Assembly (NCBI GenBank): GCA_000002445.1
Contig: CP000071.1
Span: forward strand, 800,001 to 864,000
DNA from: Trypanosoma brucei
Lineage: Eukaryota
Direction: 5' to 3'
Length of the DNA: 64,000 nucleotides
The notes beneath the pieces were generated by a model that was not told the DNA's origin, made no database searches, and saw only the letters and a program-made list of their open reading frames with translations. Below, in pieces: positions 10,553-46,791 of this stretch (position 1 is its first letter; the number at the start of each line of letters is the position of its first letter). Position numbers and translations under genes: made by a program.

Positions 10553-11569
10553 ATGTTCCGAAGGCTCACACAGTACACAGGAGTTGTAGGCGCTGTGCGC
10601 ACCATTGTTGTGTTCAGTCAACAGCACCACATACTGGAGAGCAATCAAAAAGCTCGGAGCAGCCCCAGCAACGTGTGGATCGAAGACTGGGAGGCTGAGA
10701 GCTATGGACTGACTCCAGAGCCTGGTGCCGTGTCCACGCAGCTGCTACTAGACAAGCCGCTCGAGCTATATAATTTCGATCAGCTCCTCTCTCCACCGGA
10801 GGTAATGGAGGCACCAAAGCACAGCAGTTACAGCTCCCGGAAGGTTTATGGTGAAAAGCTGCAATTCGAGCTCAATGATCGCGCTCAGAAGCATGGGTTC
10901 CACAGTAAGTGGTGGTTAACGAGAACGCAGGCTGTGAAGAACGCCCTCACGTTTAAAAACAACGCACGTAGCTCCATCATTCTCTCGAAGAGCTCACTCA
11001 GGTTGTACCACTCCAGTCAGTTGGTTGGCGGAGAAGCACTCATGACACATCCCGTATCAGGCGGCTCGAGGAAGCTCTACAGCAGGAAGGGAGATGCATA
11101 TCAGGTGCTGTGCGAACACATCCGTCAGAACGCCTTCAACAGCGGTCTCTACTTTACGAGACGGCAGCTGGAGTTCTTCAAGTTGGCGGTGCAGCCGAGT
11201 CAAGCACCTGTGATGATGGATGTCTCATCTGGGGAGCGGTTCCTCATCTTCAACGTGGAGCAACTCGAGGACCCCGAAGTGGCACTGAGGACTCTCGACC
11301 GCTCACCAGTGAGCATTCCGACCTTCCTTCTCTCAGGTGAACCGATGCAGCACGAAGGGGTAAAAAGGCTTCCCAGGTTTAAGAGCAATTACTGGCTAAG
11401 CGGGCGTGATGCTGAGCTGTACCAGTGGCCAATCAAAGAATCAGAGAAGAAGAGGGGAGTAACGCTAAAGAACGAGGGGAGTGCGTCGCTGCAGGTGGAG
11501 TTGTTTAACGTAGAACAGCTGGCAAACCCTGAAGAAGCATTCGCCAAGGCTGGACTCTTTGTCCAGTGA
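10553..11569 (+). CDS. Hypothetical protein, probably mitochondrial, paralog A of a reiterated-motif family
   Basis: The N-terminus MFRRLTQYTGVVGAVR resembles kinetoplastid mitochondrial presequences. Three internal copies of an L[YF]N[FV][DE]QL..PE motif (LYNFDQLLSPPEV, LIFNVEQLEDPEVA, LFNVEQLANPEEA). Also shares HGFHSKWWLTRTQAVKN-like and LYF..RQL blocks with the ORF at 13493. Confidence 0.7.
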   Translation: MFRRLTQYTGVVGAVRTIVVFSQQHHILESNQKARSSPSNVWIEDWEAESYGLTPEPGAVSTQLLLDKPLELYNFDQLLSPPEVMEAPKHSSYSSRKVYGEKLQFELNDRAQKHGFHSKWWLTRTQAVKNALTFKNNARSSIILSKSSLRLYHSSQLVGGEALMTHPVSGGSRKLYSRKGDAYQVLCEHIRQNAFNSGLYFTRRQLEFFKLAVQPSQAPVMMDVSSGERFLIFNVEQLEDPEVALRTLDRSPVSIPTFLLSGEPMQHEGVKRLPRFKSNYWLSGRDAELYQWPIKESEKKRGVTLKNEGSASLQVELFNVEQLANPEEAFAKAGLFVQ

Positions 11570-13492
11570 TAGAGTGAGTTACCGCGCGAATGGGAACGAA
11601 GAGGGCGAACCATAAACAAAAGAGAAGAACAGCACCTCCGGGAAACCCCCAACGGGGAAGAAAAAGCAAGCAACCGGAGGACAGGAACTCAAAAAATCTT
11701 ATAAAAGGGAGGAACCGCGGGAAAGTGATCGTTCTTTTTTACACGCAAATGAACTCATGCAGTAGGGGGAGAGATGGGTTGGCGCTGCACTCACTACGAA
11801 GGAAAAGAAGTAGGAGAGCGAAAATCTAGTTGTATTTATGGGTGACGAGGTGCGACCAAGGATCTTCGATATGCGCTGCTAAACCAGTTAACCGGGTGTG
11901 CGTTTATACTCATTTACACGGGAAAGGCACAAGATGCGGTGTTGGGGGACAGCGAAGAGAGTGTCCTTCAAGATTGAACGGAATTGTTTGGACATGGTAA
12001 AAGAGATCATGGGGCGTAGAGTGAATTACTAGGGCAACGGTCGAACACAACCACGCCACCTATACTTGGTGTGGTTTACCTCTTCTCTGTTGACTCCTCA
12101 GGTCTTTGTTTTGCTGCTTGATCCCCCAGCATAGTGCCTCCAAGTGGTTAGAGGTTTGTGAACCGAGGTGTGTGCGTCACAGGTTCAGTAGCATTAACCG
12201 TTCCTCCCTTACTTTATTTCTGAGAAATTACGTTATTTCTACCACACTTTTTCTCCGCACATGGGGCAAAGTTTCCCATTCCTCCGTGTGGCACGCGCCA
12301 CTGTCTTGCCAGTTATATATTTATTTATATATCCGCCTTTTTGTCTTCATCTGCCCCGGTTGGTAGTTGTGCGCGTATCACCTTGGGCCAGGCTTGTCGC
12401 GCAGCATAGATTAATGCACTTGTTTATTGGCTAAGGAGTTTTGTGGGCCTTTTGTACGTTCTGAGGGCATTGAGTGGGCTGTCGATTTTGTTGTAAAGGG
12501 GTGGAGAAACTGATTGTGGCTACGCCAATTGGGAACCATGTCTGCTTCACTCTGCCGCACATGGGGAGGGGGAAAAAGAAGTAAAGTGGAAGAGTGAAGG
12601 AGTGAGTTGTCAAACGTACTCGTGCCGTTATTCTGTGCATACGTAACCTCTGTCTTGCAGAGCCCCACCCCAATATTTTTGCGGGTCACCTCCTTCCCTC
12701 CCCCCCCCTTTCCCTCATTTTTGGTGTTCTCTTCCCAAATTTTATTCATTCCCTTCCACGGGAGCGTCCCATTAAATGATTTCCCCAAAGTTCTTTATCT
12801 TACCGATTTTGTTTTCTCTGTTTTGCAGAGGATTTACTAGCTTTTGCTGTTTGACAGTCCGAAGCAAAGCAACAAAGAGAGTAGTAAAAAAGAACCATGC
12901 TCACGACGTGTTTCGCTCAGTTGTGGTAATATTCTTCCCCGATGCTCTCCGTTTCAGTTTATTTCACCTGTCACACACGTCCAAAAGCACACCGGCCCTC
13001 ACCGTGAGTCTCACATGCATCCGTACTCGGGTCCAGCCGTCAATTCAGGTGGAGGAGGAGGAAGGGGCTGGCAGCGTCCAGACACCTCTGAAGTAGAGGT
13101 GTGTAGGAGGGGAATGCGAGAGGAGTAAAATAATTAACCTCTATGGGATGGATACTAGACGGAAAGAACAAGCTTATGTATAAGCGGCTTACGCATGTAA
13201 TAGTCAATTTGTCTTTAATGTGGATAAAACATGCTTTCCTGGTTGTGCTGAACTCTCCGTTCATCTTGCCTTACATCTTTTTCGTGTGCTTCTCTTTCCG
13301 TTCGTGCCTGTGTAAACCTAAACTCACACTGTCGTTTAAACTATTACGAACAAAACCCGAGGGTTCGCGTGGCCTTCGCTTCCGGAGCATTGATTGTCAT
13401 CACTGCGGGGGACGCGGGTGAACACGCTACGGCACTCATTTATAGACGTAGACACATCAGGCATAGCGCAACGCACCTGACATATAAGTTAA

Positions 13493-14827
13493 ATGCGGTG
13501 TTCAGCGCGCCTTGCCGCTGTCTTTACGCCGGCGATGCCTCATTTGGATGCTTTTCTCAGACGTCACACCCGACCCGATCACCGATTGCGCCATCATCCA
13601 CTGTGGCTCAGTGAAGAAGACCTGCAGCACCTAGGAAACATTTCCATCGACAGGACGAACCATTGTGGCAGCAGTCTATGTAAAGCGGACGGGCCTCTAC
13701 CAACTGTGCTGGTGGAAGCTCCACGCACGGTTTTCCTCTACAACATGGACCAACTTCCTCCTGAATGCGAGGTCCGGTGGCAGTTTCCGCCCGTAGACGT
13801 GCCATCGTCGGTGAGCAGTATGACAGGTTACAAACTTAAATCCCGCGAACTACTGGAAAAAGCCCGCCATGAGATGGGCTACGAGTCCAACTGGTGGGGC
13901 ACAAAGGCGGCGTGGGCCAAGAAAGGAGTCATGGTGGATATGAACTTGCTACCCACGCCCGTTCCTTCATTACATGTCAGCCAATTCCTTCACATATCAT
14001 TCCTCGTGAACGGTGATCACGTATTGAAGAACTCGTACATCTCTGGGAAGACCGGATCATTAAAATCTTGGACAAGCCATGAGGGTGTACCATCGGCATA
14101 CGAGGATTTTCAGCGGCTGGTGAAAGAACATATGCAGGCCCATAGTTTTGCCTCTCCTCTATACTTCTCGGAGTCTTCACTCCGGAACGCAGGGATTTCC
14201 ATCCGGCCAGGTGTTCAACCCCTGGACTTTTCCGATGTTCAACACACGAACAGCTACATAGGGAACAGGAAACTTGCGCTTCAGGAACTCACAACTACCT
14301 ACCAACAATACTACCACTTGTCACAGCTTGTATTCCCAGCTGGCTACAGAATTCCACGGTCCGTAGTTGAGGTGGAGCGTCAGAACCCCGGTGTGCCAAT
14401 CCACGGAATGACTGGTCGATTGCTGAGTGTCCCTGAGCTACATCCCGAAGCAATCGTGAACTCCAGCGCACCTGAATTGGCACCGTTTGTGATGCGGGGC
14501 AGCAATGAGACCGGCAGTAATGAGCCCAACAATGTTTCATCAGTTGTGGACTTGGAATCCCCGTGTGCTGCGTATGGAAGGAACTTGTGGTACTTACCAC
14601 AAGACGTGCTTGAAGCGGGTGGTGTGGTTGATCCAAACGCAATGCCCGTGGAGGCTGCTGTTGGTAGTCACTCTGACAAGAGGCGGCGCAAACTTTACAA
14701 TGTCGAACAATTGGTGATTCCACTTGAGGGTTACAAAGCAGTTGGTTGCATTGCTACCATGAACCGTTTCGTTCAGTCAGACAAGCCGCCATGTGCTGGA
14801 ACCTTAGCGGGTGATGAGTTGGGGTAG
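13493..14827 (+). CDS. Hypothetical protein, probably mitochondrial, paralog B of the same family
   Basis: Aligns block by block with 10553..11569: LYNMDQLPPECEV / MGYESNWWGTKAAWAKKG / SPLYFSESSL / GVQP / LYNVEQLVIPLEGY. The start may be the Met at 13535 (MPHLDAFLRRHTRP, presequence-like). Confidence 0.7.
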   Translation: MRCSARLAAVFTPAMPHLDAFLRRHTRPDHRLRHHPLWLSEEDLQHLGNISIDRTNHCGSSLCKADGPLPTVLVEAPRTVFLYNMDQLPPECEVRWQFPPVDVPSSVSSMTGYKLKSRELLEKARHEMGYESNWWGTKAAWAKKGVMVDMNLLPTPVPSLHVSQFLHISFLVNGDHVLKNSYISGKTGSLKSWTSHEGVPSAYEDFQRLVKEHMQAHSFASPLYFSESSLRNAGISIRPGVQPLDFSDVQHTNSYIGNRKLALQELTTTYQQYYHLSQLVFPAGYRIPRSVVEVERQNPGVPIHGMTGRLLSVPELHPEAIVNSSAPELAPFVMRGSNETGSNEPNNVSSVVDLESPCAAYGRNLWYLPQDVLEAGGVVDPNAMPVEAAVGSHSDKRRRKLYNVEQLVIPLEGYKAVGCIATMNRFVQSDKPPCAGTLAGDELG

Positions 14828-15526: not shown

Positions 15527-16984
15527 TTGGGCTTCCATAAGCTGGCTGTTATGACGAGCAAGCATGTGGTGGGGAATGTTTTCGCTGCTACGGCTGTTCT
15601 GCGATGTGGACGCTTCGTCAGCGGTACGCGATTAGGATGTAGCTCCGGGAAAATTATTATCCCGACACTTCCTACTTCAGGGGTGGTTGAAAGGAACCTC
15701 GGATCGTTTTCCTCCACTTCGGCTCTGGGCCGTGGAAGCAGCGAGTACTACGAAAACAAGAGGATGGACCCTGCAGTGGGACAATTTCTTGGCGGTGATG
15801 CCAGTGCTACACTTCGGCGGCAGCAGCAGCTTGAGCATTTTCGCAACGCTACGGAGGACGCCGCCGTGAGGATATGGCGGGACTCTAAGAGCCACATTCG
15901 ACGGCAGGAAAAACTTGTGCAAGATATAGGTGTAGAAGGGGCAGTTCGAGAGCTGCTCCAGCCTACACAAATTTCATTTCGTCAGGAGCTACGTCAGCGC
16001 CCATTGGACCGCGGTATCCTGGAGGAAATATATAAGGGACTGCACGGGAGGCGGATCGAAAGGCAGTTGAAAAGGGGTGTGTCATGGGAGCATTGGATTA
16101 CAAAGGGTGATGGCACCGCACCGGTGTTCACCGCCTCTAGGAAGGCACAGCAAACATTTGCGTTTGGTGGTAACATTAAGCTAGTGGCGAAGGCGACACA
16201 CCCCAAACAGTTCCCGGTTATGGCCATGGGTGGAGGGTATGAAAGCAGCAACGGTGTTTTCGCAATGGGGGAGTCGCAGCGTTTGGTGCCGGAGGTTGCG
16301 TTTGTTGGTCGCACTTCGAGTGGAAAATCGTCACTGGTGAATGCCATTGTAAATGCGATGGTTGCACCGTATGGGCACCTGCAGGGGACGACTAGCTCCG
16401 TTAACTTCTACAACATTGCAGACAAAATAGTACTTGTAGACTGCCCGGGGTACGGTTATTACAATCCAATGGAAACACCTCATCTGGACGCGGAGAATGC
16501 CGTGGCGTCAATGCGTGCGTATCTCACTTCATGCAGCCGTTGCGTTGACGAGAAGCAAGCGGTGGCGGGTACGGGCCGTATCAACATAGCAGAGCGGGCC
16601 GCTAAGGACAAGGCGGCAAAGCATGGGAACAGAAGTCGCATTCGTGCTCCGGGTGTACCTCGTCCGATTAAGCGTGTATTCGTTTGTGTGTCTGCACGCG
16701 GGATGCAACACAGTGATTTGGCGTACCTGGACCACCTAGAGACTCTCTCCCTTCCCTTCTCTGTTGTTCTCACAAAAACGGATGCCGCGCCCATTCGATT
16801 TCTTGCGCGGCTTGCGGACCACACACGCTGCCAGCTTGTTCATTACAAGAATTGCAAGGAGCTACTTCTAACGAGCTCACTTCGGCTTGCCGGAATTGAC
16901 AAAATGCAGAGTCTTATTGGAAGTATGGCACTTGGGGAAGACAAGCTGCATGGCGCGACGACTGACTTCAGCGCCATTGTTTAA
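15527..16984 (+). CDS. EngB/YihA-type GTP-binding protein, probably mitochondrial
   Basis: G1 P-loop GRTSSGKSS, G3 DCPGYG, G4 LTKTD. The N-terminus is Arg/hydroxyl-rich and presequence-like. Confidence 0.8.
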   Translation: MGFHKLAVMTSKHVVGNVFAATAVLRCGRFVSGTRLGCSSGKIIIPTLPTSGVVERNLGSFSSTSALGRGSSEYYENKRMDPAVGQFLGGDASATLRRQQQLEHFRNATEDAAVRIWRDSKSHIRRQEKLVQDIGVEGAVRELLQPTQISFRQELRQRPLDRGILEEIYKGLHGRRIERQLKRGVSWEHWITKGDGTAPVFTASRKAQQTFAFGGNIKLVAKATHPKQFPVMAMGGGYESSNGVFAMGESQRLVPEVAFVGRTSSGKSSLVNAIVNAMVAPYGHLQGTTSSVNFYNIADKIVLVDCPGYGYYNPMETPHLDAENAVASMRAYLTSCSRCVDEKQAVAGTGRINIAERAAKDKAAKHGNRSRIRAPGVPRPIKRVFVCVSARGMQHSDLAYLDHLETLSLPFSVVLTKTDAAPIRFLARLADHTRCQLVHYKNCKELLLTSSLRLAGIDKMQSLIGSMALGEDKLHGATTDFSAIV

Positions 16985-17352: not shown

Positions 17353-20300
17353 ATGAGCCAAAGCCGTGTTCCTATAAGGTATGGAGCCTTTATTCACCTC
17401 TCCTGCGACGAAGGGTACGTTACAGCGGGAGGGTTGGGTAATGAAGGGTTGTTCATACGGAACAAGAATGAGCTAAGCGACGATGCCGAGCCACTACCGC
17501 TTTTTGGGTTTGAAACAAGCGTTTTTCAGATCCTACCTCCAACAGTGGCTAAAGTCGCGGCAGAGGAGGGGTTGAGCAAAGGCAACCGGGCTCCAAACAG
17601 CAACCCTCTTTCGGACGGTGTCAGTAATATTTACTCGACACAACAGGTGACTTTCGGGCAATTGTTTGTGCTGGTCCATGCGGTGAGCCGCCTACACGTG
17701 GCGGCACTGCCGTCGGAACCTTCTGAGAGGGACCCTGACTGCGCCCGGCTTGTGCTCGCACCGCCTGGTGAAATTGAGCAAACCTTCTGCCAGTTTATCT
17801 TCACACCGCGTTACACAACGCACGGTGAAGGAGATGTCGTGTGCCGAGGTGATGAAGTATTGGTGCAGCTGTCCAGCATCCCTATATTCCTTCAAACTAC
17901 GGTGGTGTCACCTACACGCCCGGTAAAACACGAAACTTTTGGAAGTGCAAGCTTCCCCTACGAACCGACTGATGGATGTGGACGTGGGAACAGTTGGAGT
18001 GCTGGCACCCGTATGGCACTATCTGCTGTGTTGGGAGCACCAGAGGTTAACTTATCGGAGGCAAAAGCACTCGTTTTTGTTGTTGAGCGCTATGACATCG
18101 ATCGAGATAAAGCGGAACATCAACGTATTCTGCACCGCATCCCCCGGCCGTGCGTTTCCGCAGGTGTGCCGGTAATATTTTACCATCTCGAGCACAAGCG
18201 GGTACTGGCTACGAGTGTCGCAATGCCCCCTTGCCAAGGGGGTGGCAAGATTGGAGTGTCAGGCGTGGCGCCAAGGGGCAATGAAGGTGGTGGGGAACGC
18301 GATCATTTGCTCAAGACAAGACAGACTCACTCAGTGATGGGAAATGTTACCGTGATATGCCACGCTTCAGGGAGGTTTGCTGCGGCGGGGAGTTCGAAGT
18401 CGCAGGGAAGTGATTCCCATTCCGCAGGAGCGACAAGCCTCGACTCCGACCCATGTAGCACTAAAGGAAAGGCACCCGATGACCGTAAAAGGGTGAATGG
18501 TGTCGGTGGTGCCGCCCTCCCGCTCTTCGCAGTGGATAAGGGTGTAGCTGATGGAACGTTCAGTGAAGAGGGAGCCCTCAGCGGGTTGCAGTGCAGTTGC
18601 ACCGCTTTGTGGATATTAGAAAACGAGCAACCAACGGTAGGTGGGGCCGTGAATATGAATTCGGGAGTGTATCGCCTCCGTCAAGCCTGTTCTAACTTAT
18701 ACGTTGCTGTGGAAGGGTCAGCCGTTGATACTATACTTGAGGGGGACGGTTCTCCTGAGGGATCTGTTGTGTCGCAGAGGTCCTGTTGTAACCTCACTGG
18801 AGATATCGTAAACGAGGAGGGGGGTGATGTGGTTCGCCCCACAACGCTGTCCATGATTCCGCCACCACGTACACCGAAAGACCTTCAACGCACACTTTTC
18901 AGACTAAGCCCCATGTTTAACACAGATTGCGGGTATCTTATCGAGAATGACTGCTTGCTACTGCAGAACGTCGCCACAGACATGTATCTGTGCACAAGTG
19001 AGGGAAGTGAAACTCTTTCTCTATCATGGAAGCCATCAAATATTGATTTGATAGTCGTCCGAAGGGCCGCAACGGACGTCCAGGATAGCGTCCTATTTCT
19101 TTGGTCCCAATGTGAAACACTTAGTGGGTACCGTGATGCCTTCCAGGTACTGACAACGGAAGGAACGGCAACGCACCAGCAACAAACGGAAACGGACGGT
19201 GAACATGGACAGGGCAGGTATCCTTCGGCAGAAGGCTCAACCAGCCCCACTCTGATGGAAGGAAGAATGGCAATTGTATCGGATTATAATCACATTCCAG
19301 AAAGTTTTGTACGACCTAGCAAAACGTGCCCCAAAGGCAGTAACGTAGGTACTGGTTATGCTTCGCTTCTTCCGGTTATTTGTGCCTGCCAGCGTACACT
19401 CGCCGAGCTCATAATTTTTTGTTCAATCTCTCCTGAACGAAATGTTCTGCGAAGAGACGGCATACCTATCCCGAACCACCAGCATATGTTGGTTGAACTG
19501 TGCGTTCACCGCCTAGTTATTGATGTTATTCTCGCCCCCTTTTCAAAGTTTGGGGTGAGAGCTGACCGATCGGTGGGAAAGCATGCACAATGCTGCGGGC
19601 AGTGGGGCTGTTCTTCTTGGCTTCCACCGCTTCCACTGTCTGGCGGAGTGGTGGATGTTAACGACCTTTTACTGAAGATGCACCGAGAGATTCATATCGT
19701 CTGTCGTCTTGGTTTTCGACTCTTAAGGCAAATGGTCCGTCAAGCGCCGGAGCTCAAGGCAGGGTTTGAAAACTATATACCGTATTTTCTGGCTTTTGAC
19801 GGGTACAAGCTAGAGGTTGTCGATTCGCTGACAAGGCTCTTTTCGGAGAACCCCGCCGTGAGGAACTCATCTTTGGAACTTGTGGTTAATCACTACATCG
19901 CTGGCCTCCACCTCACGCGTTCCGGAAGATATCTGCAGTTGCTATGCTCCATGTGTTCTGTTGGGACCCACGGCGTGACGGAACGTCAGCGACTTGTGTG
20001 TCAAAAACTTCTCGTTGAAAATGCTAACGCATTGTACAGCTTTGTGCTTGATAGTGGCGGCGAGTGGGCCGTTAAAACTGACAAGGATGAACCGCCAATA
20101 CCGTGTAACATCCTTTTTTCAGGACAGCAACAAGACGGCGGAGAAGAGGAAGGAACGAAGCTGAGGGAATACGTGCAGAGCGAATTGGAGCTACTGGGTG
20201 CCCTGTGTCTGGATGGGTGCCCACCTTTATGTAGGGAAGAAGTAGCCAAAGTGTTCCCTTCACCAGTGCTCCTGATGGCTTTACGCAACTTTTCGCCGAA

Positions 20301-23300
20301 ATGGCCTGAAGTGAGCGACCGGTCGCGCGTCTGTGACGTTGTGCGGAGTCATTTAATACGTCTCGCAATGCACTGCTACATCCTTCCATATATCGATGAC
20401 CCAGCTGTGCAGCTACGCGAGGGCGCCGTCCTGCTAGGTTCCAGCAAGTTGCATCTCAAAGTCGATGAAAAAACAGCCTTCTCTGGCAAGCCGGACAGTG
20501 AACTCACCCAGGCTGTGAAAGAGGGAACACTCCACGTCATCCGTTCTAACACCCATTTTGTACGGTCTGACACAGGCCGTAGTATATTGATTCGTGCCGC
20601 ATTAGCGGCATGGCTGCGGTTCGTTAGTGCACATCAGGTTTCCGCCACGGAGACAGCCTGTCTGGTACCGTTGCTTCTAGAGCTTCTTGATAGTAGAGAC
20701 GACGAGGCTCACGACGGCAGCAGCAAAATAGCGGAATACACATGGACACGCCTTGAAGTATCCGAAGCGGGACTGCTCGTTGTTCGGGCTCGAGAGATGA
20801 TTTGTCAGATCCTTCTGCAAATTCTTGAGACCGCTACTTACCGCGCAGCAAATGAAATTAACCTACTGCTGCATGGTATTTTGGTTACTGACCACGGCGC
20901 CAGCCTCGCCCACCAGCACGATTATTGTTCGTTACTCCGCAGGGCGGACGTCTCTTCGACCGGAGACCCGTTTGTCACATCCCCAACCGAAAGAGACGCA
21001 CTGCTGTGGCACAAAGGCAAGGCCAATGACGGTAATGGAAACCGTTGCTTTGGATTGAACAGACGCAAGGGGCCCAGCGACTACCAGTCGACGGTAGCCG
21101 GTAGCGCCGTGACCACGCAGCTCAGTGGCTCCACAAAGGATGTTGCCGCCTTCTTAGATTACGTCAAAGGCATCTGCAGTTGCATCGTGCGCCCACTCCG
21201 TGTTGATCAGCTGGTACCACGGCTCGTCGATCTTGCACACCACGATGGATCACAATTGGCACCATACGCCATGGAGTTGCTCGTTCGAATCTGCACGGTG
21301 AGGCGCAGTGTGGCCCGTCTCGTGCTTCAAGTGCATCCTTTCCCCTCCTCCGAAGTGATTCAATGTTTTGACAATATGTATTTTGCTGCTGTTCAAGTGC
21401 GGTCATCATATATTCGAGGATCCGTGGAGGAGGCCATTGATGTTGCCCTCCAGGGCATCGACGGGTTAAGCACTCAAACTCAAAACGAGGTGACAGGCAC
21501 AACGAATGAGGGTAGAGTGGATGACGGAGGCACCGACGAGTACTATAATGATTTAACGGAGGATGACGAGGAGATCGAAGAAATAGGTATTTGTGAAGAA
21601 CAAGAAGTTGAGGCAAGCTCTTCGTCAGCCCCCGAAGACCAACATGAGGTCGGAGGGGAAAGCAAAGCACGGCGCCTGTGGTCAAAGGCAGCTGGTGCGG
21701 CCCGCATCGTTGTGTATCGAAACGCCATAATTGCACGCCGACGTTCTGTTGGACTAAGCGAAACGTCGCGCGTCCCGCTTCGCGTTGTTGTCCGTGCGGA
21801 GACAGTACGCCATTGGCAAGTGCACATAACTATGCTCGAAATGTACCCGTTCATCGGCCCGTCGAGCCCTGCGTTCAGCAAGTGGATGCGTTTCTTTTAT
21901 GTTTTCACGTTATCCCAAAGTAATGCCGAGTCGCTGAAGGCCTACATTGATATATTTATGGGGGCCTTCAACCTTAGCAGCAACTGCGTTGTTATGGGCC
22001 TCCATATTGTCCTCAGTATTCTCGCGACAATCAAAGATCCAACACCACACCTAACTGACGCATTTCTCCGCGAGTCCGCCCGTTACATTGATGGAGAAAT
22101 TGCTGCTCTTCACCCCGACGGAGAGTTTGCCACCAAGTTGGGTCTCCACGTCTTCACCAAGACCACGGTTGGGGGCATTCCGCGACGTCGTATGTTACAG
22201 CTGTTGCGTGACTATGATGCCTTCCGCTGCCTCCCCTCACCCGGAGTGACCGAGAAGCACGGGCGGGGTCGCTTCACAGCTTGCATCGTTGAGATGGTTT
22301 GCCGCATTTGCGGTACATCAATGGGTGCCGTGGCGCTGGGGCGGTCGGCTCTGCCAGTGACTCATCTCTTAGAAATCACGCTGAGCTATGGCACATCCTA
22401 CACCCCCCTGGTAGAGGTGCCGCGGCCCCGTGCATTGTGGGAAAGTAACTCGTTCCATCTTCTCGGTGCTTATCTGTTGGCGCTCGTGTCGCTCTACATT
22501 GCCGCGGGCGACGCAGGGGGAGACGGGGGTCGAAGACAACGGCAGATGGAATGGATGGCGAACCGTGACTGGTGGTCGGTTGTGCTTTTGCTTTCACGGC
22601 AGCTAAAAGAGCTCACACGGCTAATGCAGTCTAGAACAGAGACTGTGCTATGGCGGGGACGCCGCATTCTGCAGCGGTATCGCCGGTTGTGGCTTGTCAA
22701 TTTACCGCTGGCACTGTTAACTTTCATGACAGAATGTTTTAATGAGGCAGGTTTTTACAGGTACCGGGACGTTGTGGGAGCTACCTTCCACGAAATGTGT
22801 ATGAGTGTCGCCGGGTTTAGCGAAGTGCTCCTCGCAAGTGCTGATGCGATACGGCTGCAGGCAAGAGAGATGGTGGGTTACCGCCGCCTCGTGGCCCTTC
22901 TCCAGGTCCAGACGGGAAACCTCGTGGGTCACGAGCTTCTTTCAGGCACGATGTTGACGACGCGACGCAATCTACGACACGGCGTTATCTGCTACTATAA
23001 GAAAATAAATGAGGCCGAAGAAGAGGCCCGCGGACTACACCCGGACGCTCTCCTGTTGGCCGAGACCGGACCCCAGGCTGAAAACGACGGCATCCAGGGT
23101 GGTTTAATTGCAACAGCGGATGTACCCACGCACACACAAAACGATGCAGACGACTCGTCCCCTATGGGATTACTAATATCTGGTGCTGCGACGAAATGTC
23201 TTGATGCGGAGCGACTCCGTGGTGCACTGCGCAGTCTTGTGAACCGTGACCAACTGATCACCATGGAGGACAGCACGGACCTAGGTGAGCCGGCTGGGAT

Positions 23301-26300
23301 CATGAACGCCCTTTTGTTAAGCTGTCGAGAACGGTCAAATGTTCTAGACTTTGTGTCCACGACTCTCGGCTGCATGCGGGAGCGATCCTTTGGTTCCATC
23401 ACCCTTATTGGTATGCTAAACATTTTCTCCAATGCGCTACATACAGCACTCAGAGAACAGGAGAGAGAAAGACTGAAACATGTTAGTGCTGAGAACTCGT
23501 CGGTGATCACCGACATTTTTACGGTGAGGAGTTTTGAAACCGACTATGCAAAGGAGAATGCGGGAAGGCTACTGCAGACGACGTTCAGTGATCTCGGTGC
23601 AACGCGCGCTATTGCGTCCCTCTGCGCAGTGGACGACCAGGTAGTGGCCTACAGTGCTGTACAACTCTGTGTTGGTCTCCTCGAGGGTGGTAATGAGCAT
23701 GCCCAGAAAGCCCTTCTCGCATATTTCCAAGAGCACCAAGAGAGATTCTTTCACAACATTCGAGACATGCTTCACAAAGCCGTGGATTGGGTGCAGTGTA
23801 CCAACGCAGAACACCAGATCGTTGTGCTTGAGAGGGGTGGAGTGGTTCCTAACGTATCCAACGCACACGAATTCACCCGCATGCTTCTGACAAACGCACT
23901 CACCACGCCCCCATCGCTCTACAGCAGTCTAAAAGTGAGGGTCGGACGCGGTACAGCGGTTGCAAGAAGACGACTTTCCGCGTGGGACCGAGCAGGCGGA
24001 AGTCTCAACCAACGTTTCGTTTGCACCCTATTTCGTATGCTCCAGCTCTTCTGTGAAGGGCACAACCTCAGTATGCAGAACTACATCCGCTCGCAGTACG
24101 ATAATTTGCATAGCGTAAATGCTGTGCATGAAGTAATGAACCTCATTACGGAAATAGCCGCTGTTGTCCACCCGGCCACCGTCCGGATGCTTCAGAGTGC
24201 ATTCGCGCTCCTAACTGAGCTGTGCCAAGGGCCATGTCATGAAAATCAAGAGGCCCTGCTGGGTTACGGTGTGTGTGTCGTTATCAGCAAGTTGCTCAGC
24301 CGCCTGAATTTGCCGGACGTGACGGGCACTCCATCCACTGGAACAGGCATTACAAACTGGGGCGGCGGTGACAGCAACAGTACTGATAACAAGGCTTCGG
24401 TCGACTGCTGCACCCTGAATGAAACAGATAGCGAAGGCAACGCTTTTTTACGTCTACAAGGCGGCTTTTTACTAAGCAAGGACGATGCTGGAAACCTCCG
24501 TATTGCACTCACACAATGCCTACTCTCGCTTATCGAGGGATGTCGTTCACGGGACGTATTCCACCAACTGCTGGAACAGATTCCAGTCGAAGTTATCGAG
24601 CGCGAGCTAACCACGGTGGACCCAGGGGCGTACGACAGCATTCTTGAAAATGAGGAACTGGCGAGTGACCCGGGTGTGGAGGCCCTCTTCAACTGGCTTA
24701 TTTTCCTGAAGACTGTCAGACCGTACGCGGAGGCCGATTACTTGAAACGGATTGATGCAATGCTTCAGCACACAAATAAACTATGCACTCGCCTCGGATT
24801 CATTGAAATACAACGTGCGGATGGAATGCTGGAGAAAGTGCTGTTCCGCATTCCACACGTCTGGCGCGGGTTGATGCGTAGGAATAGGAAGCAGATGCTG
24901 GCGGAAATTAACTGCAGCAGTCGTGCAGCGAAGCTCGGAGACTTTATGTACCACAGTGACAACGTGATCTTTGAAGTGGAACGTAGCTATGCATTCCAGT
25001 GCTGGGTAGAGCGCCGCACACGCTGGAGGTTGGACAACAGAAGTAGCGGTTGGAGAGGTAAAGAGTGTGATGCCGGCAAAGTCGATACTTCAGTCGACGC
25101 AGGCAAACCTAGGTGGACCCCAAAATGGAAACAATGCTCAGATGCGCCCAAATATTTCTGGAACCATTTCATTGCACCCGTACTGTTTTGCACACACCTC
25201 GGTTTTTACGAGTACAGCTCCCTCCTCGTCGCTGTGGTTTTGAACATTGCTTTGATCAACGGCGAGGGGCGTCATCGGAATCTGGAAGAATCCCAGCTCT
25301 GGGCTAACATCATATCTGGCCTGTGTGTCCTGCAGCTTGTGTTGTCTTTAATTGCAATAACTGTGGATACTATTGTCTTTTTCCCGGTGTCGCTGTACGT
25401 ACACTACCGCCAGAAACAGCAGCGGTTTTCCGGGCGGGCGAAGTTCAACGAAACATTGCAAGGGGTTTTACGTGGGTTGAGTGCGAAAGAAATCAGTTTA
25501 CTGCTTGTGACGCGCTTCAGTTTCCAATATCGCTTACTTTTGGTTGTCATGGCGGTTTTAAGCATCTTCGTTTCATATTACTTTGCTGCCGCACACCTTA
25601 CGCTTATGGTTTACACGTTTCCCACACTTCGTACCTTTGTTAGCGCCATCACGCACAATGGCCGACAGTTACTCCTAACGGCCCTGCTTGGTGTCATGGG
25701 ATTGTATCTTTTTGCCATCGCGGGCCGCATTATGTTCCCTGAGCAATTCGGAAGCAACGGTGAGGTCGACGAAAACTCGGGGAAGAAAAACGACGAAAAT
25801 GGAAACTGCGACACATTGCTGCGCTGTTTTACATTTATTCTGTGGCAGGGGCTGCGGCAGGGTGGTGGCGTCGGGGATGTCATGGATGAGGTATCATGGA
25901 ATAGCTCAACACTTGTACCACGGGTGAGCTACGATCTCATTTTCTTCGCTCTTGTAAATGTTGTCTTCCTCAACATCATGTTTGGTATCATAATTGACAC
26001 TTTCGGTGAGTTGCGCGACGACCGACGAGAGAGGGAAAACGAACTGAGGAGCACCTGCTTTATCTGCGGCCTAGACGCGGACACACTTGAAAAGGGCCAA
26101 GTGGGCGGTTTCAGGGCTCATGTGGAAGACGCACACAATATGTGGATGTACCTTTACTTTATTCACTACCTCCGTCATAAGGACCCGAACGAGTTTACTG
26201 GTCAAGAGTCGTACGTCCACGAGAAGATTCAAAGGAATGACCTCTCCTTCTTTCCGGAGGAAGACTGTCTTGCGTTACAAGAATGCAGGGAGGGCAACGG

Positions 26301-29518: not shown

Positions 29519-30970
29519 TGGCACAGAGGGTAACGAAGTAGGAATTTTTGCCGCCAGCTGAGGTCGTTTACCTTGGGTTGGCTGTCATGGAGATAGGGAA
29601 GAGAGAAGCAACATCGCGTGCAAGGAAAAACGAACAGAAGAATCGATCCCTCCCCCCTCCATGAGTCCTTCTTCGTTTATAATTTCGGCTGTTGTTTTTG
29701 CTGTCACCTTTTTTTTTCTTCCTTCTCGTTCGCCACACCCTCTCCTCAACCTCCTTTACCTCCATGGATCTCTCGGCAGCAGTCCCCCTCCCCTCATTCC
29801 CCTCATGTTTTGGTGGTCGCCTTATTGGCACCTCTTTTCGTCATTTTTTCCCCCCACTTGCTGCAGTTCAAGGCGTATTTGTGGGGAGAGTAAAGAACAT
29901 AAGTGAAATCTGAAAACAATAGAAAAGAGAGATGAATTAATTAATGAATGAATGGGAGAAATAAGGAGGAGAGGTGGTGGAGAGCTGGGGAACTGTAATG
30001 AAGAAGAAAAAAAAGAAGAACGAGGGAAAGGTAGATTCAGTGGGGGAGACAAAACAGTGAAGAAGAATCTGGCGGAAAGCAACAATAAGTGTGAAAATGA
30101 GAACGAAGGTGTGAATGATTCTTCAGTTTAAGAAACCACACGTGAAGAAGGACAGAATATATAAATAAATATATCTATTTATATGTTGATGTCTCAGAAG
30201 AAAAAAAGCAAAGGAGGGGAGATAGAAGAGGTTTAAAGGGAGGAAGGAAGACAGGCCCTGAAACCAATAAAACAAAATAAATAAATAAAGAAACGCGAAA
30301 TCAAAACTGAAAATGCGAAAAAAAAAACGAAGAACAAGAAGGGTGCAATGAAGGAATGAACTCCACAGAGAGAATACCCGTTCAAACATTCTTTTCTTCG
30401 TTTTTCCCCTCCTCCTCTCCCCGACGCAACCGCCCCCCTTTTTTTTCTATAATTGGCTCTTCTGACCCACACCCCCTCACTTTCCTTCTCAAAGAACGGC
30501 ATCTTGTTTTCCCACCCTTTATTATTGTTAATTTCTTTTTTCGCTTTACTATTATTATTATTATTTACCACCCCATCACCGTTACTTTTAGTTGTTTTTT
30601 TTTTTTTTATGCCTCTCTCCTTTCATTTTTTTGCGCTTTTGCTCCTCCTTATTGGTTATGTAGAGCGATTTATATAAATCTAATATATATATATATATAT
30701 ATATTTGTATTCATATATTTTATGTCTTATATACATAACTACTTTCGCGCAGAAAAGGGAAAGAGGAAAGGAGAAGAAGGGGGAAAATAGAAAGCCCATG
30801 CACATATATATATATATATATTTATTTATTTGTTTATTTATTTATATATATATATATATGTATTCTTTGTACCTCCCTTTCGTTTTTACTTTGTTTTTTG
30901 TTTTACCTTTTTTTTGTTTCTACTTTGTTTCTTGTTTTGTTTACTGTTAGTCACTCCTTACTATTTTTAC

Positions 30971-31110
30971 CGCCTCTATTATTATCACTATTATTATTAT
31001 TATTATTACTATTATTATTCCTATTATTATTATTATTATTCCTATTATTATTATTATTATTATTCCTATTATTATTATTATTCCTATTACTACTGCTATT
31101 ATTATTGTTA
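30971..31110. repeat. Imperfect (TTA)n/(TAT)n microsatellite punctuated by CC (cctattattattatt... x4-5)
   Basis: Direct reading of the sequence. Confidence 0.9.
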
Positions 31111-33336: not shown

Positions 33337-33371
33337 GTTTTGTTTTGTTTTGTTTTGTTTTGTTTTGTTTG
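33337..33371. repeat. (GTTTT)7 pentanucleotide microsatellite. A related (CTGTTTT)3 lies at ~33478-33512.
   Basis: Direct reading of the sequence. Confidence 0.9.
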
Positions 33372-36300: not shown

Positions 36301-36599
36301 ACAAATACTTGCAGCATCCGTTCTCTTCCCTCCTTAATCTTTCTCAGACTCTTCCCCTGTCATCTACTTTATTGTTTATTGTACTGTTCCCTTTCTATTT
36401 TGTTTCTGTTTTCGTTTGTGTTTGTGTTAAATCCGATAATCATCAACAGCATCTAACCGGTATTTTGTTTTATCCGTGGTAACGAAAAGAAAAAGAAAAA
36501 AGAGAGACAATAATATATCTCTGTTAATGCCCACGTTAAACTATATATTTTTGTAGGAAGGAGAGAAGAGGGTATGGACCTGCTAAGGGAATTACATAT

Positions 36600-36760
36600 T
36601 TGTTCCCTTCTGTATGAACCACACTTACCTACGGTTTTTGTTGTTTTTTTTTTGTCTTTGTTCCTCTTGTTTTGGTTTGGTTTTTTTTTTTGGTTTCGTT
36701 TCGTTTCTATTTCCTTTTTTTCTATTTGTTTTACGTCTTTGATTGTCTCGTTGCGCGGGA
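36600..36760 (+). promoter_or_regulatory. Long polypyrimidine block, candidate polyadenylation/trans-splicing signal at the end of the RBP10-like 3' region
   Basis: ~160 nt that are almost exclusively T/C (ttttgttgttttttttttgtctttgttcctcttgttttggttt...). Its function is inferred from the general trypanosomatid mechanism. Confidence 0.4.
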
Positions 36761-42912: not shown

Positions 42913-45900
42913 ATGCCGCTATACAATATCACTATTCATCCGCTGAAGCTTGCTGCGCACTTCTGCAAACAGGGTTGTTCATACGTTGTCGTTGTTAACC
43001 GTAAGGGGGTGGAGCTGGCGACAAAACCCGCCATGTGTACCGTTGCCGATGAGGTGGCCTTCAGCACACCGGCGGAACTGAACCAGACCCGGACATTTCA
43101 ACTTGCCTTCGACTCACCCAAGGACCGACGTATGATCCAGTTTGCTATGTACGACGTTACCAATCCGAAGCATAGCATAAGGATCACAGGATTTGAAATC
43201 CCACTTGCGGGGATGTGCAGTGTGCTTGCCGGTGAGTCCATATGCGAAAGGAAGGCTGTCTCCTTCCGCATTTCTGGAAGGCCGGGGCGGTTGGACGTCA
43301 TTTTCCGCATGCACCCCACTACGAGCCCCGTACCCCCTCTGACGTTGTATGCGGGGCCGGCAACAGGTTCTGGAGGAAGCAGCTCACCAGTGGAAACAGT
43401 TCGCCTCCCCGCGCGCACCGTGGAGGTGCTTAAGAAGGTTGGTGTACTACCAAAAGATGTGGAAGAAGTTGAGGTGGACGCTGTCATCGCCCAGGAGGTT
43501 GTTGTGCGCACTTCCATGTTGTTTCCCAGTGAGGCCGAACTGCGTGAACGTGTGATGACGCTCGAACGTGAGGTAGCCCAACAGGAGTATAGCGTGCGGT
43601 ATGCTTCAAAGGACAGTGTGTCTTCAGGTTCGGCCGCTTGTGTTGCGCTGCGTAGCGAGCTTCAATACTGGAAGGACACTGTAGAAAGAGTGAATCTACA
43701 GTCAGCGCAAGAAACAGGGATTGCGTTGTTGCTTAAAGCTGGTGAAGAGGGTGAACACGACGACGGCAGTCGCGCCCTCATAGCCGATGTTGAAGGGCAA
43801 CTGGAGGAGGCGAGGAGAGAGCTAAAGACCATAGAAAGATCCCAGAATGATGAAGAGTTGAACACGAAATTAATTCCACTTCTCGGGCAGGTGGAGCAGT
43901 TGGAGGAGCTACTGGAACACCTCCGGAAGGAAGTACATGTACCACCCAAGACTGCGGGATCTAGTGAGAAAGCTGACGTCGTAGATCAGTGGGAACAACT
44001 TGCGCGCGAATTATTCGACAAGGAGCTGATGGTTGAACAACTTATGCACACAGTTCTTACACTCAACCAACTTCAGTTTGAACCATATCCTGCCGCAATT
44101 GAGATGGGCGCTGTTGGGGATACGCCATGTGAACTACAGTTCGTGCGTGACAACAAGAGACAGTTGAAGAACCTTCCTCAGGTCCCCACTCCTAAGCAAG
44201 CCACCGATCTCGCAGCAGCCTCCGGCGGTCCCACCAGTGACAACCTGCTGAACGATCTCTTCGGTTGTCCATCTCCCCCAAAACCAGTTCCACAACCGAC
44301 GGTACAGGCCGACGAGGTGACATCACAACCGCACTTCGAAAGAGAAAACGGGGGGCTTCCAGGCGCACCATCTGTTTTTTCTAGCGGTGTGGCCCCAATT
44401 TGGGGGCAAAAGCCAGTGGGGGCACCCCCCCAAGATGACGCTATGCAACCAGCGGCCACGGCAAACACTCTAGACACCACCGATGGCAAGGTCGGCGACA
44501 GCATGGCGTTCGAAAAGAAAACAACTGAACCGCAAATTATGGTCTCCGCCGGTCTTGCTGCAGCCGCCGCATCACCACCTGACACCCAAAACGGACAGCA
44601 GCTATCATTCCCATTTGACTCGAAGCAGCAGGGTCCAACACAGGGACAGCAGCAACCATTCCCATTTGACTCGAAGCAGCAGGGTCCAACACAGGGACAG
44701 CAGCAACCATTCCCATTTGACTCGAAGCAGCAGGGTCCAACACAGGGACAGCAGCAACCATTCCCACTGGGTTCGCAACAGCAGGGTCCAACACAGGGAC
44801 AGCAGCAACCATTCCCATTCGACTCGAAGCAGCAAGGTCCAACACAGGGACAGCAGCAACCATTCCCACTGGGTTCGCAACAGCAAGGTCCAACACAGGG
44901 ACAGCAGCAACCATTCCCATTTGACTCGAAGCAGCAGGGTCCAACACAGGGACAGCAGCAACCATTCCCATTTGACTCGAAGCAGCAGGGTCCAACACAG
45001 GGACAGCAGCAACCATTCCCATTTGACTCGAAGCAGCAGGGTCCAACACAGGGACAGCAGCAACCATTCCCACTGGGTTCGCAACAGCAAGGTCCAACAC
45101 AGGGACAGCAGCAACCATTCCCACTGGGTTCGCAACAGCAAGGTCCAACACAGGGGCAGCAGCAACCATTCCCATTTGACTCGAAGCAGCAGGGTCCAAC
45201 ACAGGGACAGCAGCAACCATTCCCATTTGACTCGAAGCAGCAGGGTCCAACACAGGGACAGCAGCAACCATTCCCATTCGACTCGAAGCAGCAAGGTCCA
45301 ACACAGGGACAGCAGCAACCATTCCCACTGGGTTCGCAACAGCAAGGTCCAACACAGGGACAGCAGCAACCATTCCCATTTGACTCGAAGCAGCAGGGTC
45401 CAACACAGGGACAGCAGCAACCATTCCCATTTGACTCGAAGCAGCAGGGTCCAACACAGGGACAGCAGCAACCATTCCCATTTGACTCGAAGCAGCAAGG
45501 TCCAACACAGGGACAGCAGCAACCATTCCCACTGGGTTCGCAACAGCAAGGTCCAACACAGGGACAGCAGCAACCATTCCCATTTGACTCGAAGCAGCAG
45601 GGTCCAACACAGGGACAGCAGCAACCATTCCCATTTGACTCGAAGCAGCAGGGTCCAACACAGGGACAGCAGCAACCATTCCCACTGGGTTCGCAACAGC
45701 AGGGTCCAACACAGGGACAGCAGCAACCATTCCCATTTGACTCGAAGCAGCAAGGTCCAACACAGGGACAGCAGCAACCATTCCCATTTGACTCGAAGCA
45801 GCAAGGTCCAACACAGGGACAGCAGCAACCATTCCCACTGGGTTCGCAACAGCAAGGTCCAACACAGGGACAGCAGCAACCATTCCCATTTGACTCGAAG

Positions 45901-46791
45901 CAGCAGGGTCCAACACAGGGACAGCAGCAACCATTCCCACTGGGTTCGCAACAGCAAGGTCCAACACAGGGACAGCAGCAACCATTCCCACTGGGTTCGC
46001 AACAGCAAGGTCCAACACAGGGACAGCAGCAATCATTCCCATTTGACTCGAAGCAGCAAGGTCCAACACAGGGACAGCAGCAACCATTCCCATTTGACTC
46101 GAAGCAGCAAGGTCCAACACAGGGACAGCAGCAACCATTCCCATTTGACTCGAAGCAGCAAGGTCCAACACAGGGACAGCAGCAACCATTCCCACTGGGT
46201 TCGCAACAGCAGGGTCCAACACAGGGACAGCAGCAACCATTCCCACTGGGTTCGCAACAGCAGGGTCCAACACAGGGACAGCAGCAACCATTCCCATTTG
46301 ACTCGAAGCAGCAGGGTGTACCGCAGACCCCGTCAGTGCCAGGACAACAGCAGCAATATATGGCCCCTCCAGAGACACCTGTTCCTCGGTATGTGCGACG
46401 TCCACTAGCGTCGGGAGTGTCTCCCTTTGCTCCTTTTATTAACATTCCCCTCGTAGCACGTGCTTGTCCCCTGGATATTTACCTTGATGGGCAGACCCCT
46501 ACACGCGGCACAGAGATTACCATTCAGAACAATGGTGGTTTTGACATTACTATTGGTGGGGTGGAGCTGCGGCAGGAAGACATGACATCAACTTCGCCGC
46601 ACGCAGGTCAAACTGTTCCCATACGTCGCTGGCCACAACAAATGCACGTACCGCGCGGCGGCGGTCGCGCTACATGCATTATTGCGCTGCACCCAAGTTA
46701 TGCTCGGGGGAGTTCGCTCATCCTCCTGGTCGTGGTGTATGTGCTGAATGAGGGTCGTTATACACCTTTTGCCGCCCGTTTTCCAGTATAG
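42913..46791 (+). CDS. Large repeat-containing protein. It has an N-terminal globular region, a coiled-coil segment, ~34 tandem 17-aa Q/P-rich repeats, then a C-terminal region.
   Basis: 1292-aa ORF. A heptad-like charged region (residues ~200-330) comes before the repeat array. The repeat unit is [17 protein letters not shown] with the variant [17 protein letters not shown]. Confidence 0.8.
44590..46316 (+). repeat. 51-bp tandem repeat array, ~34 copies, in frame inside the CDS
   Basis: Unit ccattcccatttgactcgaagcagcagggtccaacacagggacagcagcaa. Two unit variants alternate irregularly: gactcgaag (FDSK) and ctgggttcgcaa (LGSQ). There are synonymous cagcaa/cagcag differences. All six frames are open across the array because the unit has no stop codon. 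Confidence 0.95.

What the first reader, a model, noticed from the sequence alone, without database searches (positions are those of the whole stretch)
10553..14827. Tandem pair of mitochondrially targeted paralogs with a reiterated L-Y/F-N-V-E/D-Q-L motif
The two + strand genes (338 and 444 aa, ~1.9 kb apart) align block by block (LYNxDQL, WW.T..A.K, LYF...L, VQP, C-terminal LYNVEQL). Each also carries two to three internal copies of the LYN[VFM][ED]QL..PE motif, so there is both gene duplication and intragenic repetition. Both have presequence-like N-termini (MFRRLTQY...; MPHLDAFLRRHTRP...). I cannot match the motif to a named domain, so this may be a kinetoplastid-specific mitochondrial protein family worth profiling.
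Basis: seen in the sequence. Interest (0 to 1): 0.55.

Follow-up and report, generated by a model that had tools for sequence, protein, structure and literature searches.

The report
Known kinetoplast DNA-binding p38 gene pair
The two neighbouring genes are the well-studied Trypanosoma brucei kinetoplast DNA replication protein p38/RBP38 and an uncharacterised sister gene, both built from four copies of a DNA-binding domain inherited from bacterial plasmids, so the repeated motif is real but already described.

The parts
10553..11569 (+). Gene 1: p38 / RBP38 / Tc38 orthologue (Tb927.8.2740), 338 aa, 38.5 kDa, pI 9.1. Four tandem ArdC-N-like units.
10553..10603 (+). Gene 1 N-terminal presequence-like segment (about aa 1-17, MFRRLTQYTGVVGAVRT). 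The extent is inferred.
   Evidence: 3 Arg and no acidic residue in the first 20 aa. AF2 pLDDT <50 for aa 1-16. An N-terminal mitochondrial targeting signal was reported for the T. cruzi orthologue (PMC2654453). The cleavage site was not determined.
10622..10804 (+). Gene 1 repeat unit R1 (aa 24-84). Motif LYNFDQL at aa 72-78 (nt 10766-10786).
   Evidence: Pfam Tc-38 E=1.5e-19 on this segment. AF2 elements H26-34, E41-44, H45-50, hairpin E62-74. hhalign to gene 2 R1 E=2.6e-6.
10847..11041 (+). Gene 1 repeat unit R2 (aa 99-163). Degenerate motif LYHSSQL at aa 151-157 (nt 11003-11023). This is the unit most like bacterial ArdC-N.
   Evidence: Pfam Tc-38 E=3.3e-6 and ArdcN E=0.0023. hhalign to gene 2 R2 E=4e-14. 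The R2 profile's top PDB hits are ArdC 6i89/6sna, E=0.023, aligned to ArdC residues 57-96.
11087..11284 (+). Gene 1 repeat unit R3 (aa 179-244). Motif IFNVEQL at aa 232-238 (nt 11246-11266).
   Evidence: hhalign R3-R4 E=1.5e-8 and R3 to gene 2 R3 E=1.1e-7. AF2 H181-193, E199-202, H203-208, E220-224/E230-234. No Pfam hit when cut out on its own.
11342..11539 (+). Gene 1 repeat unit R4 (aa 264-329). Motif LFNVEQL at aa 317-323 (nt 11501-11521).
   Evidence: Pfam Tc-38 E=1.4e-11. hhalign R2-R4 E=3.6e-7. AF2 H268-272, E280-283, H284-289, E303-305/E313-319.
11570..13492 (.). Intergenic or UTR spacer between the two genes (1,923 nt). No family member or credible gene detected.
   Evidence: Only two short, low-complexity ORFs (125 aa on the - strand, 106 aa on the + strand). 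No HMM hit. No motif in any frame.
13493..14827 (+). Gene 2: Tb927.8.2750 (Q57XB4), 444 aa, 49.4 kDa, pI 6.7. A fast-evolving Tc-38-family paralogue with four ArdC-N-like units, a conserved R3-R4 linker and a variable C-terminal tail.
13532..13774 (+). Gene 2 repeat unit R1 (aa 14-94). Motif LYNMDQL at aa 82-88 (nt 13736-13756).
   Evidence: hhalign to p38 R1 E=2.6e-6. L82, N84, D86, Q87 and L88 are invariant in orthologues. No Pfam hit on its own.
13829..14023 (+). Gene 2 repeat unit R2 (aa 113-177). SNWWGT anchor. Degenerate motif FLHISFL at aa 165-171 (nt 13985-14005), with Q replaced.
   Evidence: Pfam Tc-38 E=4.3e-6 and ArdcN 23.8 bits. hhalign to p38 R2 E=4e-14. The deep-branching kinetoplastid orthologue still has YHISQL here.
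14087..14344 (+). Gene 2 repeat unit R3 (aa 199-284) with an enlarged hairpin loop. Motif YYHLSQL at aa 273-279 (nt 14309-14329).
   Evidence: hhalign to p38 R3 E=1.1e-7 and to p38 R2 E=8.5e-7. Y273-Q278 are invariant. AF2 loop 251-270 has pLDDT <50.
14537..14731 (+). Gene 2 repeat unit R4 (aa 349-413). Motif LYNVEQL at aa 401-407 (nt 14693-14713).
   Evidence: hhalign to p38 R4 E=3.4e-5 (short) and to p38 R3 E=4e-6. N403-L407 are invariant. All eight units align in register.

Best explanation
The locus is the T. brucei-group p38/RBP38 gene (Tb927.8.2740; clade Tc-38.1 of Krishnan et al.) followed by its ancient tandem paralogue Tb927.8.2750. Each protein has a short mitochondrial presequence and then four tandem ArdC-N domains. 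The unit is helix, S-x-[W/Y]-[W/F] strand, helix, long beta-hairpin, and then a 'squiggle' turn carrying the hhsxxQ signature. The conserved Gln is proposed to stabilise the 3-10 turn (PMC6222260). ArdC-N is a single-stranded-DNA-binding module acquired by the stem kinetoplastid from a bacterial plasmid or conjugative element. Shown in the literature for p38 and its orthologues: binding to the template strands of the universal minicircle sequence and the hexamer and to TG-rich ssDNA, localisation at the kDNA antipodal sites, and loss of kDNA with accumulation of free 'fraction S' minicircles on RNAi. Inferred mechanism for p38: the four domains form an extended ssDNA-binding surface that holds the unwound minicircle origin so that leading- and lagging-strand synthesis can start. 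Inferred for gene 2, about 50% likely: it is an imported mitochondrial ssDNA-binding paralogue that recognises a different kDNA sequence or intermediate. It is not redundant with p38, because it has been kept next to p38 since before trypanosomatids diverged from a deep kinetoplastid lineage while evolving much faster (45-56% identity within Trypanosoma against 81-85% for p38).
Against: No experiment addresses gene 2's DNA binding, its sub-mitochondrial location or its knockdown phenotype. It was not flagged in the final ATOM40-dependent importome and was unchanged on Pam16/18 depletion. Its R2 motif has lost the Gln in Trypanosoma. Its pI is 6.7 against 9.1 for p38. Its model is only moderate (pLDDT 63). 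Only one of its four units is seen by Pfam. For p38 itself, the antipodal-site location does not fit well with initiation in the kinetoflagellar zone (PMC10719067), and earlier work assigned it RNA-binding or telomere-binding roles. The downstream gene of the deep kinetoplastid matches the p38 profile better (E=6e-26) than the gene 2 profile (E=1e-17), so deep orthology rests on position and on an NJ tree only. Sequence-level links to ArdC are marginal on their own (E=0.023; Foldseek E=0.5). No per-domain structural superposition could be run, so the four-domain count rests on profiles and secondary structure.
Confidence: 0.9

Rival explanations
1. One reading: a previously unnamed kinetoplastid-specific mitochondrial family defined by a novel reiterated motif, possibly linked to RNA-editing (MRB) complexes.
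For: The family is indeed restricted to kinetoplastids among named database hits. Gene 1 still carries the legacy annotation 'mitochondrial RNA binding protein'. Gene 2 is annotated only as 'hypothetical protein, conserved'.
Against: Pfam PF20054 names the domain. The motif, the tandem-domain architecture, the bacterial origin and 12 paralogue clades were published in 2018. No hit to any editing-complex family was seen.
Confidence: 0.03
2. p38/RBP38, and by extension the paralogue, acts mainly on RNA, as a non-specific mitochondrial RNA-binding protein that modulates RNA stability. This was the original RBP38 proposal.
For: The historical assignment for TbRBP38 and LtRBP38 is summarised in PMC2654453. 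Single-stranded nucleic-acid-binding folds often bind both ssDNA and RNA.
Against: The ArdC-N fold is an ssDNA-binding module. p38 binds UMS and hexamer template strands, sits at the antipodal sites, and its knockdown causes kDNA loss with fraction S minicircles.
Confidence: 0.1
3. Gene 2 is a degenerate paralogue that no longer binds DNA. It would act as a structural or regulatory partner (for example a heteromer with p38), or have a function unrelated to kDNA.
For: Loss of the signature Gln in R2, near-neutral pI, a fast rate, large lineage-specific insertions (444 aa in Trypanosoma, 612 in Phytomonas, 890 in L. tarentolae, up to about 1,170 aa elsewhere) and weak Pfam detection of three of the four units. 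Abundance is low (4 peptides against 14 for RBP38).
Confidence: 0.3
4. The proteins have a dual nuclear role, such as binding telomeric or G-rich strands, as proposed for Leishmania amazonensis RBP38.
For: Orthologues were isolated from nuclear-enriched fractions and bind telomeric TG-rich DNA in vitro (summarised in PMC2654453).
Against: No consistent nuclear signal was seen for Tc38. In T. brucei the protein is an antipodal-site marker and a member of the ATOM40-dependent importome.
Confidence: 0.05

Closest known systems
T. brucei p38 / RBP38 (Tb927.8.2740), T. cruzi Tc38, Leishmania RBP38; clade Tc-38.1 of Krishnan et al. 2018; Pfam PF20054
   Same: Gene 1 is this protein (100% identity). 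Gene 2 shares the domain family, the four-unit architecture, collinear repeat order, a presequence-like N-terminus and mitochondrial proteome membership.
   Different: Gene 2 is only 27% identical to p38. It is 106 aa longer (an enlarged R3 hairpin, a longer R3-R4 linker and a variable C-terminal tail), has a near-neutral pI, has two degenerate motifs, evolves several times faster, and has no experimental characterisation found in the searched literature.
Bacterial anti-restriction protein ArdC, N-terminal ssDNA-binding domain (Pfam PF08401; R388 ArdC structures 6I89 and 6SNA)
   Different: ArdC has one ArdC-N domain fused to a C-terminal metalloprotease, and it protects incoming plasmid ssDNA. 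The kinetoplastid proteins have four tandem copies, no protease domain (no such Pfam hit) and a mitochondrial presequence, and they act on kDNA.
XPC/Rad4 beta-hairpin domains (BHD1-3)
   Different: An independent acquisition according to PMC6222260. No transglutaminase-like domain. Nuclear excision-repair function. Structural similarity is much weaker than to ArdC, and it is not detected for gene 2.
UMSBP (CCHC zinc-knuckle universal minicircle sequence binding protein)
   Same: Binds the same minicircle origin sequence (UMS) as p38. The two are functional competitors or partners in origin recognition.
   Different: Unrelated fold (zinc knuckles) and widespread in eukaryotes. Its knockdown mainly affects segregation.

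Membership tests
Tc-38 (p38) family, Pfam PF20054 / Tc-38-like proteins of Krishnan et al. 2018 | Match to the PF20054 profile above the curated gathering score | tested here: met
   Gene 1 scores 134.5 bits (E=1e-39, 3 stretches) and gene 2 scores 34.0 bits (E=2.4e-8), against a cutoff of 23.2.
Tc-38 (p38) family, Pfam PF20054 / Tc-38-like proteins of Krishnan et al. 2018 | Two to six tandem ArdC-N domains in one polypeptide | tested here: met
   Four units in each protein, from unit-to-unit hhalign, a four-fold secondary-structure pattern in the AF2 models and an in-register alignment of all eight units. Per-domain structural superposition was not possible.
Tc-38 (p38) family, Pfam PF20054 / Tc-38-like proteins of Krishnan et al. 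2018 | hhsxxQ 'squiggle' signature (aliphatic, aromatic, small, x, x, Gln) at the end of each domain, followed by a hydrophobic residue | tested here: met
   Gene 1: LYNFDQL, LYHSSQL, IFNVEQL, LFNVEQL. Gene 2: LYNMDQL, FLHISFL (Gln lost), YYHLSQL, LYNVEQL. Definition in PMC6222260.
Tc-38 (p38) family, Pfam PF20054 / Tc-38-like proteins of Krishnan et al. 2018 | Restriction to Kinetoplastea | tested here: met
   Every named hit is a trypanosomatid. The remaining hits are unnamed metagenome or SRA assemblies. No non-kinetoplastid name appeared. The full-library profile search found only 59 representatives, and their taxonomy is not given.
Tc-38 (p38) family, Pfam PF20054 / Tc-38-like proteins of Krishnan et al. 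2018 | Single-stranded DNA binding (UMS, hexamer, poly[dT-dG]) and kDNA association | not testable with these tools
   Published for p38/Tc38. No data found for Tb927.8.2750 beyond mitochondrial proteome membership.
Orthology of gene 1 to Tb927.8.2740 (clade Tc-38.1) | Sequence identity to the characterised T. brucei protein, and slow evolution across trypanosomatids | tested here: met
   100% identity to AAZ13041.1 / D6XL11. 81-85% identity within Trypanosoma, 66-74% to Leishmaniinae and Phytomonas, and 42-44% to deep kinetoplastids.
Bacterial ArdC (full-length anti-restriction protein) | ArdC-N domain: PF08401 match and ArdC-N fold | tested here: met
Bacterial ArdC (full-length anti-restriction protein) | C-terminal metalloprotease domain and a plasmid or conjugative-element context | tested here: not met
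   No protease family hit. The genes lie in a nuclear polycistronic array of a trypanosome. They share a domain with ArdC but are not ArdC proteins.
XPC/Rad4 | Transglutaminase-like domain followed by BHD1-3 | tested here: not met

The most novel reading that the evidence does not exclude
Tb927.8.2750 and its orthologues would form a distinct, still uncharacterised kDNA single-stranded-DNA-binding factor that has stayed physically linked to p38, and to the downstream mitochondrial GTPase gene, since before the trypanosomatid radiation. It would recognise a different class of kDNA sequence or replication intermediate than p38 (for example maxicircle origins or particular minicircle classes), or work as a heteromeric partner of p38 at the antipodal sites. 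Its rapid divergence and lineage-specific insertions would then track the diversification of kDNA sequences. The conserved tandem linkage is not mentioned in the main text of the 2018 family paper.
Probability: 0.3. Interest if true: 0.35.

Novelty: already known. Interest (0 to 1): 0.15.

Why it matters
As a discovery it matters little. The family, its domain, its motif and its bacterial origin are all published, and gene 1 is a textbook kDNA replication factor. The residual value is practical. Tb927.8.2750 is a conserved, expressed, probably mitochondrial four-domain ArdC-N protein with no assigned function. It sits beside p38 in every kinetoplastid examined here. This makes it a reasonable candidate for anyone listing the kDNA maintenance factors that are still missing, and a test case for the published idea that Tc-38 paralogues specialise on different kDNA circles.

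Tried and rejected
1. Sequence-profile searches of both full-length orthologue alignments against the PDB found nothing meaningful. The PCNA and peptidase M23 hits at E of 0.045 or worse are short chance matches.
3. Pfam scans of cut-out repeat units detect only 3 of 4 units in p38 and 1 of 4 in gene 2, so Pfam alone undercounts the repeats.
4. I looked for published work on gene 2. There were no full-text hits for Tb927.8.2750.2760 or .2730. It is not mentioned in the 2026 genome-wide kDNA screen or its supplements, in the 2024 kinetoplast-associated protein preprint, or in the supplements of the 2026 kinetoplast-loss proteomics paper.
5. The supplements of Krishnan et al. are not held, so I could not determine which Tc-38.x clade gene 2 belongs to or the published domain count per clade.
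6. Liu et al. 2006 (PMC1592711) is not held, so its results are cited second-hand from PMC10719067 and PMC6222260.
7. A third paralogue in the window is rejected.
8. An independent, lineage-specific duplication in the deep kinetoplastid was considered because its downstream gene matches the p38 profile better. The NJ bootstrap analysis does not favour it: that grouping was recovered in 0 of 200 replicates. A maximum-likelihood tree was not available.
Full report
**Observation**

They lie in a long array of + strand genes.

BLASTP of the pair gives E=3e-11 with 27% identity over about 217 residues. Comparing profiles of the two orthologue sets raises this to probability 99%, E=8.7e-18 over 221 columns.

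The motif is real:
- The relaxed pattern [LIVF][YF]N[VFMIL][EDS]Q[LIV] occurs three times in gene 1 and twice in gene 2. Shuffled sequences give about 0.0002, and no other frame of the window contains it.
- Three degenerate copies (LYHSSQL, FLHISFL, YYHLSQL) bring both proteins to four motif positions.
- HMMs of both families and of the repeat unit find no third member in the window.

One correction is needed. The 444-aa ORF begins MRCSARLAAVFTPAMPHLD, and that extension is conserved in Trypanosoma orthologues.

**What it is**

Both proteins match Pfam PF20054, "Trypanosoma Tc-38 (p38) protein", above threshold (134.5 and 34.0 bits against a cutoff of 23.2). Both also give a weaker match to PF08401, the N-terminal domain of the anti-restriction factor ArdC. 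That match is 26.2 bits for gene 2, above the 22.6 cutoff.

Gene 1 is 100% identical to AAZ13041.1/D6XL11 of T. brucei, T. equiperdum and T. b. gambiense. This is Tb927.8.2740, known as RBP38 or p38. Gene 2 is 100% identical to AAZ13042.1/Q57XB4, "hypothetical protein, conserved". That protein is Tb927.8.2750, and its listed mass of 49.379 kDa equals the mass computed from the window. The window is therefore T. brucei-group chromosome 8.

**Already described**

Krishnan, Burroughs, Iyer and Aravind (iScience 2018, PMC6222260) showed several things about Tc-38-like proteins:
- They are kinetoplastid-specific arrays of two to six tandem ArdC-N domains, most often three or four.
- The domain was acquired from a bacterial plasmid or conjugative element.
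- The family expanded into 12 paralogue clades. Tc-38.1 (p38) evolves slowly and other clades evolve fast.

They define a signature "hhsxxQ" motif (aliphatic, aromatic, small, x, x, Gln). It marks a 3-10 "squiggle" near the end of the domain, and in Tc-38 it is followed by a hydrophobic residue. L-Y-N-V-E-Q-L is exactly that.

**Independent tests done here**

I split both proteins into four putative units and compared the unit profiles.
- Orthologous units match collinearly: R1-R1 2.6e-6, R2-R2 4e-14, R3-R3 1.1e-7, R4-R4 3.4e-5.
- Units also match within p38: R3-R4 1.5e-8, R2-R4 3.6e-7, R2-R3 1.2e-4.
- The four-unit architecture therefore predates the gene duplication.

The structural evidence agrees.
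- The AlphaFold model of p38 (pLDDT 81.6) shows the same element order four times: helix, short strand, helix, long beta-hairpin, helical turn at the motif.
- The gene 2 model is weaker (pLDDT 63). It has the same order, with an enlarged R3 hairpin and a longer R3-R4 linker.
- All eight units align in register on an S-x-[W/Y]-[W/F] anchor and the motif.
- The ArdC structure was released in 2020, after the 2018 prediction, so this is a clean confirmation.
- Foldseek ranks ArdC first but without significance (E=0.5).
- A profile of unit R2 hits ArdC at E=0.023, aligning the S-x-W-W-x-T...Q-A region with ArdC residues 57-96.
- Full-length profiles find nothing in the PDB.

**Age of the pair**

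- In L. tarentolae, p38 is followed by an 890-aa Tc-38-domain gene and then an MMR_HSR1 GTPase.
- In Phytomonas, p38 is followed by a 612-aa gene.
- In a deep-branching metagenomic kinetoplastid whose p38 is only about 44% identical, p38 is followed by a 443-aa Tc-38 gene and then the GTPase, with a short - strand gene call between those two.
- The window has the same order: the GTPase is 15527..16984, Tb927.8.2760.

The Phytomonas and Leishmania downstream genes align collinearly with gene 2, with large insertions (E=8.5e-46 and 1.2e-32).

The deep kinetoplastid's downstream gene aligns with the gene 2 profile (E=1e-17) but aligns better with the slowly evolving p38 profile (E=6e-26). I therefore built an NJ tree of 67 family members on 324 columns.
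- The trypanosomatid gene 2 clade has 96.5% bootstrap support.
- In every replicate a split puts the gene 2 lineage and the deep downstream gene on one side and all p38 sequences on the other.
- The grouping expected from an independent duplication was recovered in 0 of 200 replicates.

This is a distance tree, so the conclusion that the duplication predates that divergence is probable rather than proven. Gene 2 evolves much faster than p38: 45-56% identity within Trypanosoma against 81-85%. This fits the published contrast between slow and fast clades.

**Function**

For p38 the evidence is experimental and published:
- RNAi causes kDNA loss and accumulation of free fraction S minicircles.
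- It localises at the antipodal sites, and it is the community's reference marker for that structure.
- The T. cruzi orthologue binds TG-rich ssDNA, has an N-terminal targeting signal, and moves around the kinetoplast through the cell cycle.

The inferred mechanism is that the tandem ArdC-N domains form an extended ssDNA-binding surface. This surface would stabilise the unwound origin until synthesis starts.

For gene 2 nothing functional was found. In the Peikert et al. 2017 supplements:
- it is detected with four peptides;
- it belongs to the mitochondrial proteome reference set;
- it falls to 0.54-fold on ATOM40 knockdown (p=0.026);
- it was not included in the final importome, whereas RBP38 was.

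It was unchanged on Pam16/18 depletion. Its N-terminus is Arg-rich and disordered in the model.

I therefore take gene 2 to be an imported mitochondrial ssDNA-binding paralogue with a different target. A real alternative is that it is a degenerate, non-binding partner: the R2 Gln is lost, the pI is 6.7, and it carries large lineage-specific insertions.

**Verdict**

This is an already known family, and gene 1 is a well-characterised protein. The open points are the specific role of Tb927.8.2750 and the conserved p38, paralogue, GTPase linkage, which is not discussed in the main text of the family paper. Interest is low.

Noticed in passing
window 30000-37500: An AT-rich block of about 7.5 kb (GC 0.32-0.34 against about 0.51 elsewhere). 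It consists of low-complexity poly-T/TG tracts, (TA)n and (TAT)n runs, and has no ORF of 200 aa or more. It interrupts an otherwise continuous + strand gene array. Its nature is not established; it could be an unusually long intergenic or UTR region or a degenerate repeat.
   Followed up: partly
window 44593-46317 (inside ORF 42913..46791, 1292 aa): A tandem repeat of 51 bp with 33.8 copies and 92% matches, in frame (17 aa per unit) within a large + strand ORF. It produces several overlapping spurious ORFs on both strands.
   Followed up: no
window 54288-61838: A small-RNA gene cluster: ten tRNA genes in three groups (54288-54801, 58106-58671, 61366-61600), the 7SL/SRP RNA (61030-61255, - strand) and U3 snoRNA (61696-61838, + strand).
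   Followed up: no
window 15527-16984 and 17353-26652: The genes downstream of the pair are Tb927.8.2760 and Tb927.8.2770. Tb927.8.2760 (52.159 kDa) is an MMR_HSR1-type '50S ribosome-binding GTPase' in the mitochondrial reference set, and it decreases in the TbPam16/TbPam18 study's supplementary proteomics tables. Tb927.8.2770 is the 3099-aa IP3 receptor. The GTPase keeps its position after the p38 pair in L. tarentolae and in a deep metagenomic kinetoplastid.
   Followed up: partly
L003 11538-12866 (metagenomic kinetoplastid, ENA ERZ19399582): The gene 2-position paralogue of this deep lineage is much less diverged from p38 (hhalign E=6e-26 to the p38 profile) and keeps the Gln in its R2 motif (YHISQL). 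This suggests that the acceleration and motif decay of gene 2 happened later, in the trypanosomatid line.
   Followed up: partly
Gene 2 orthologues P0040-P0055, L001 13382-16051, L002 12209-14044: The gene 2 lineage varies from 430 aa in Trypanosoma to 612 aa in Phytomonas, 890 aa in L. tarentolae and about 1,170 aa in unnamed relatives. The extra length comes from insertions between and inside the ArdC-N units. p38 stays at 336-360 aa throughout.
   Followed up: no
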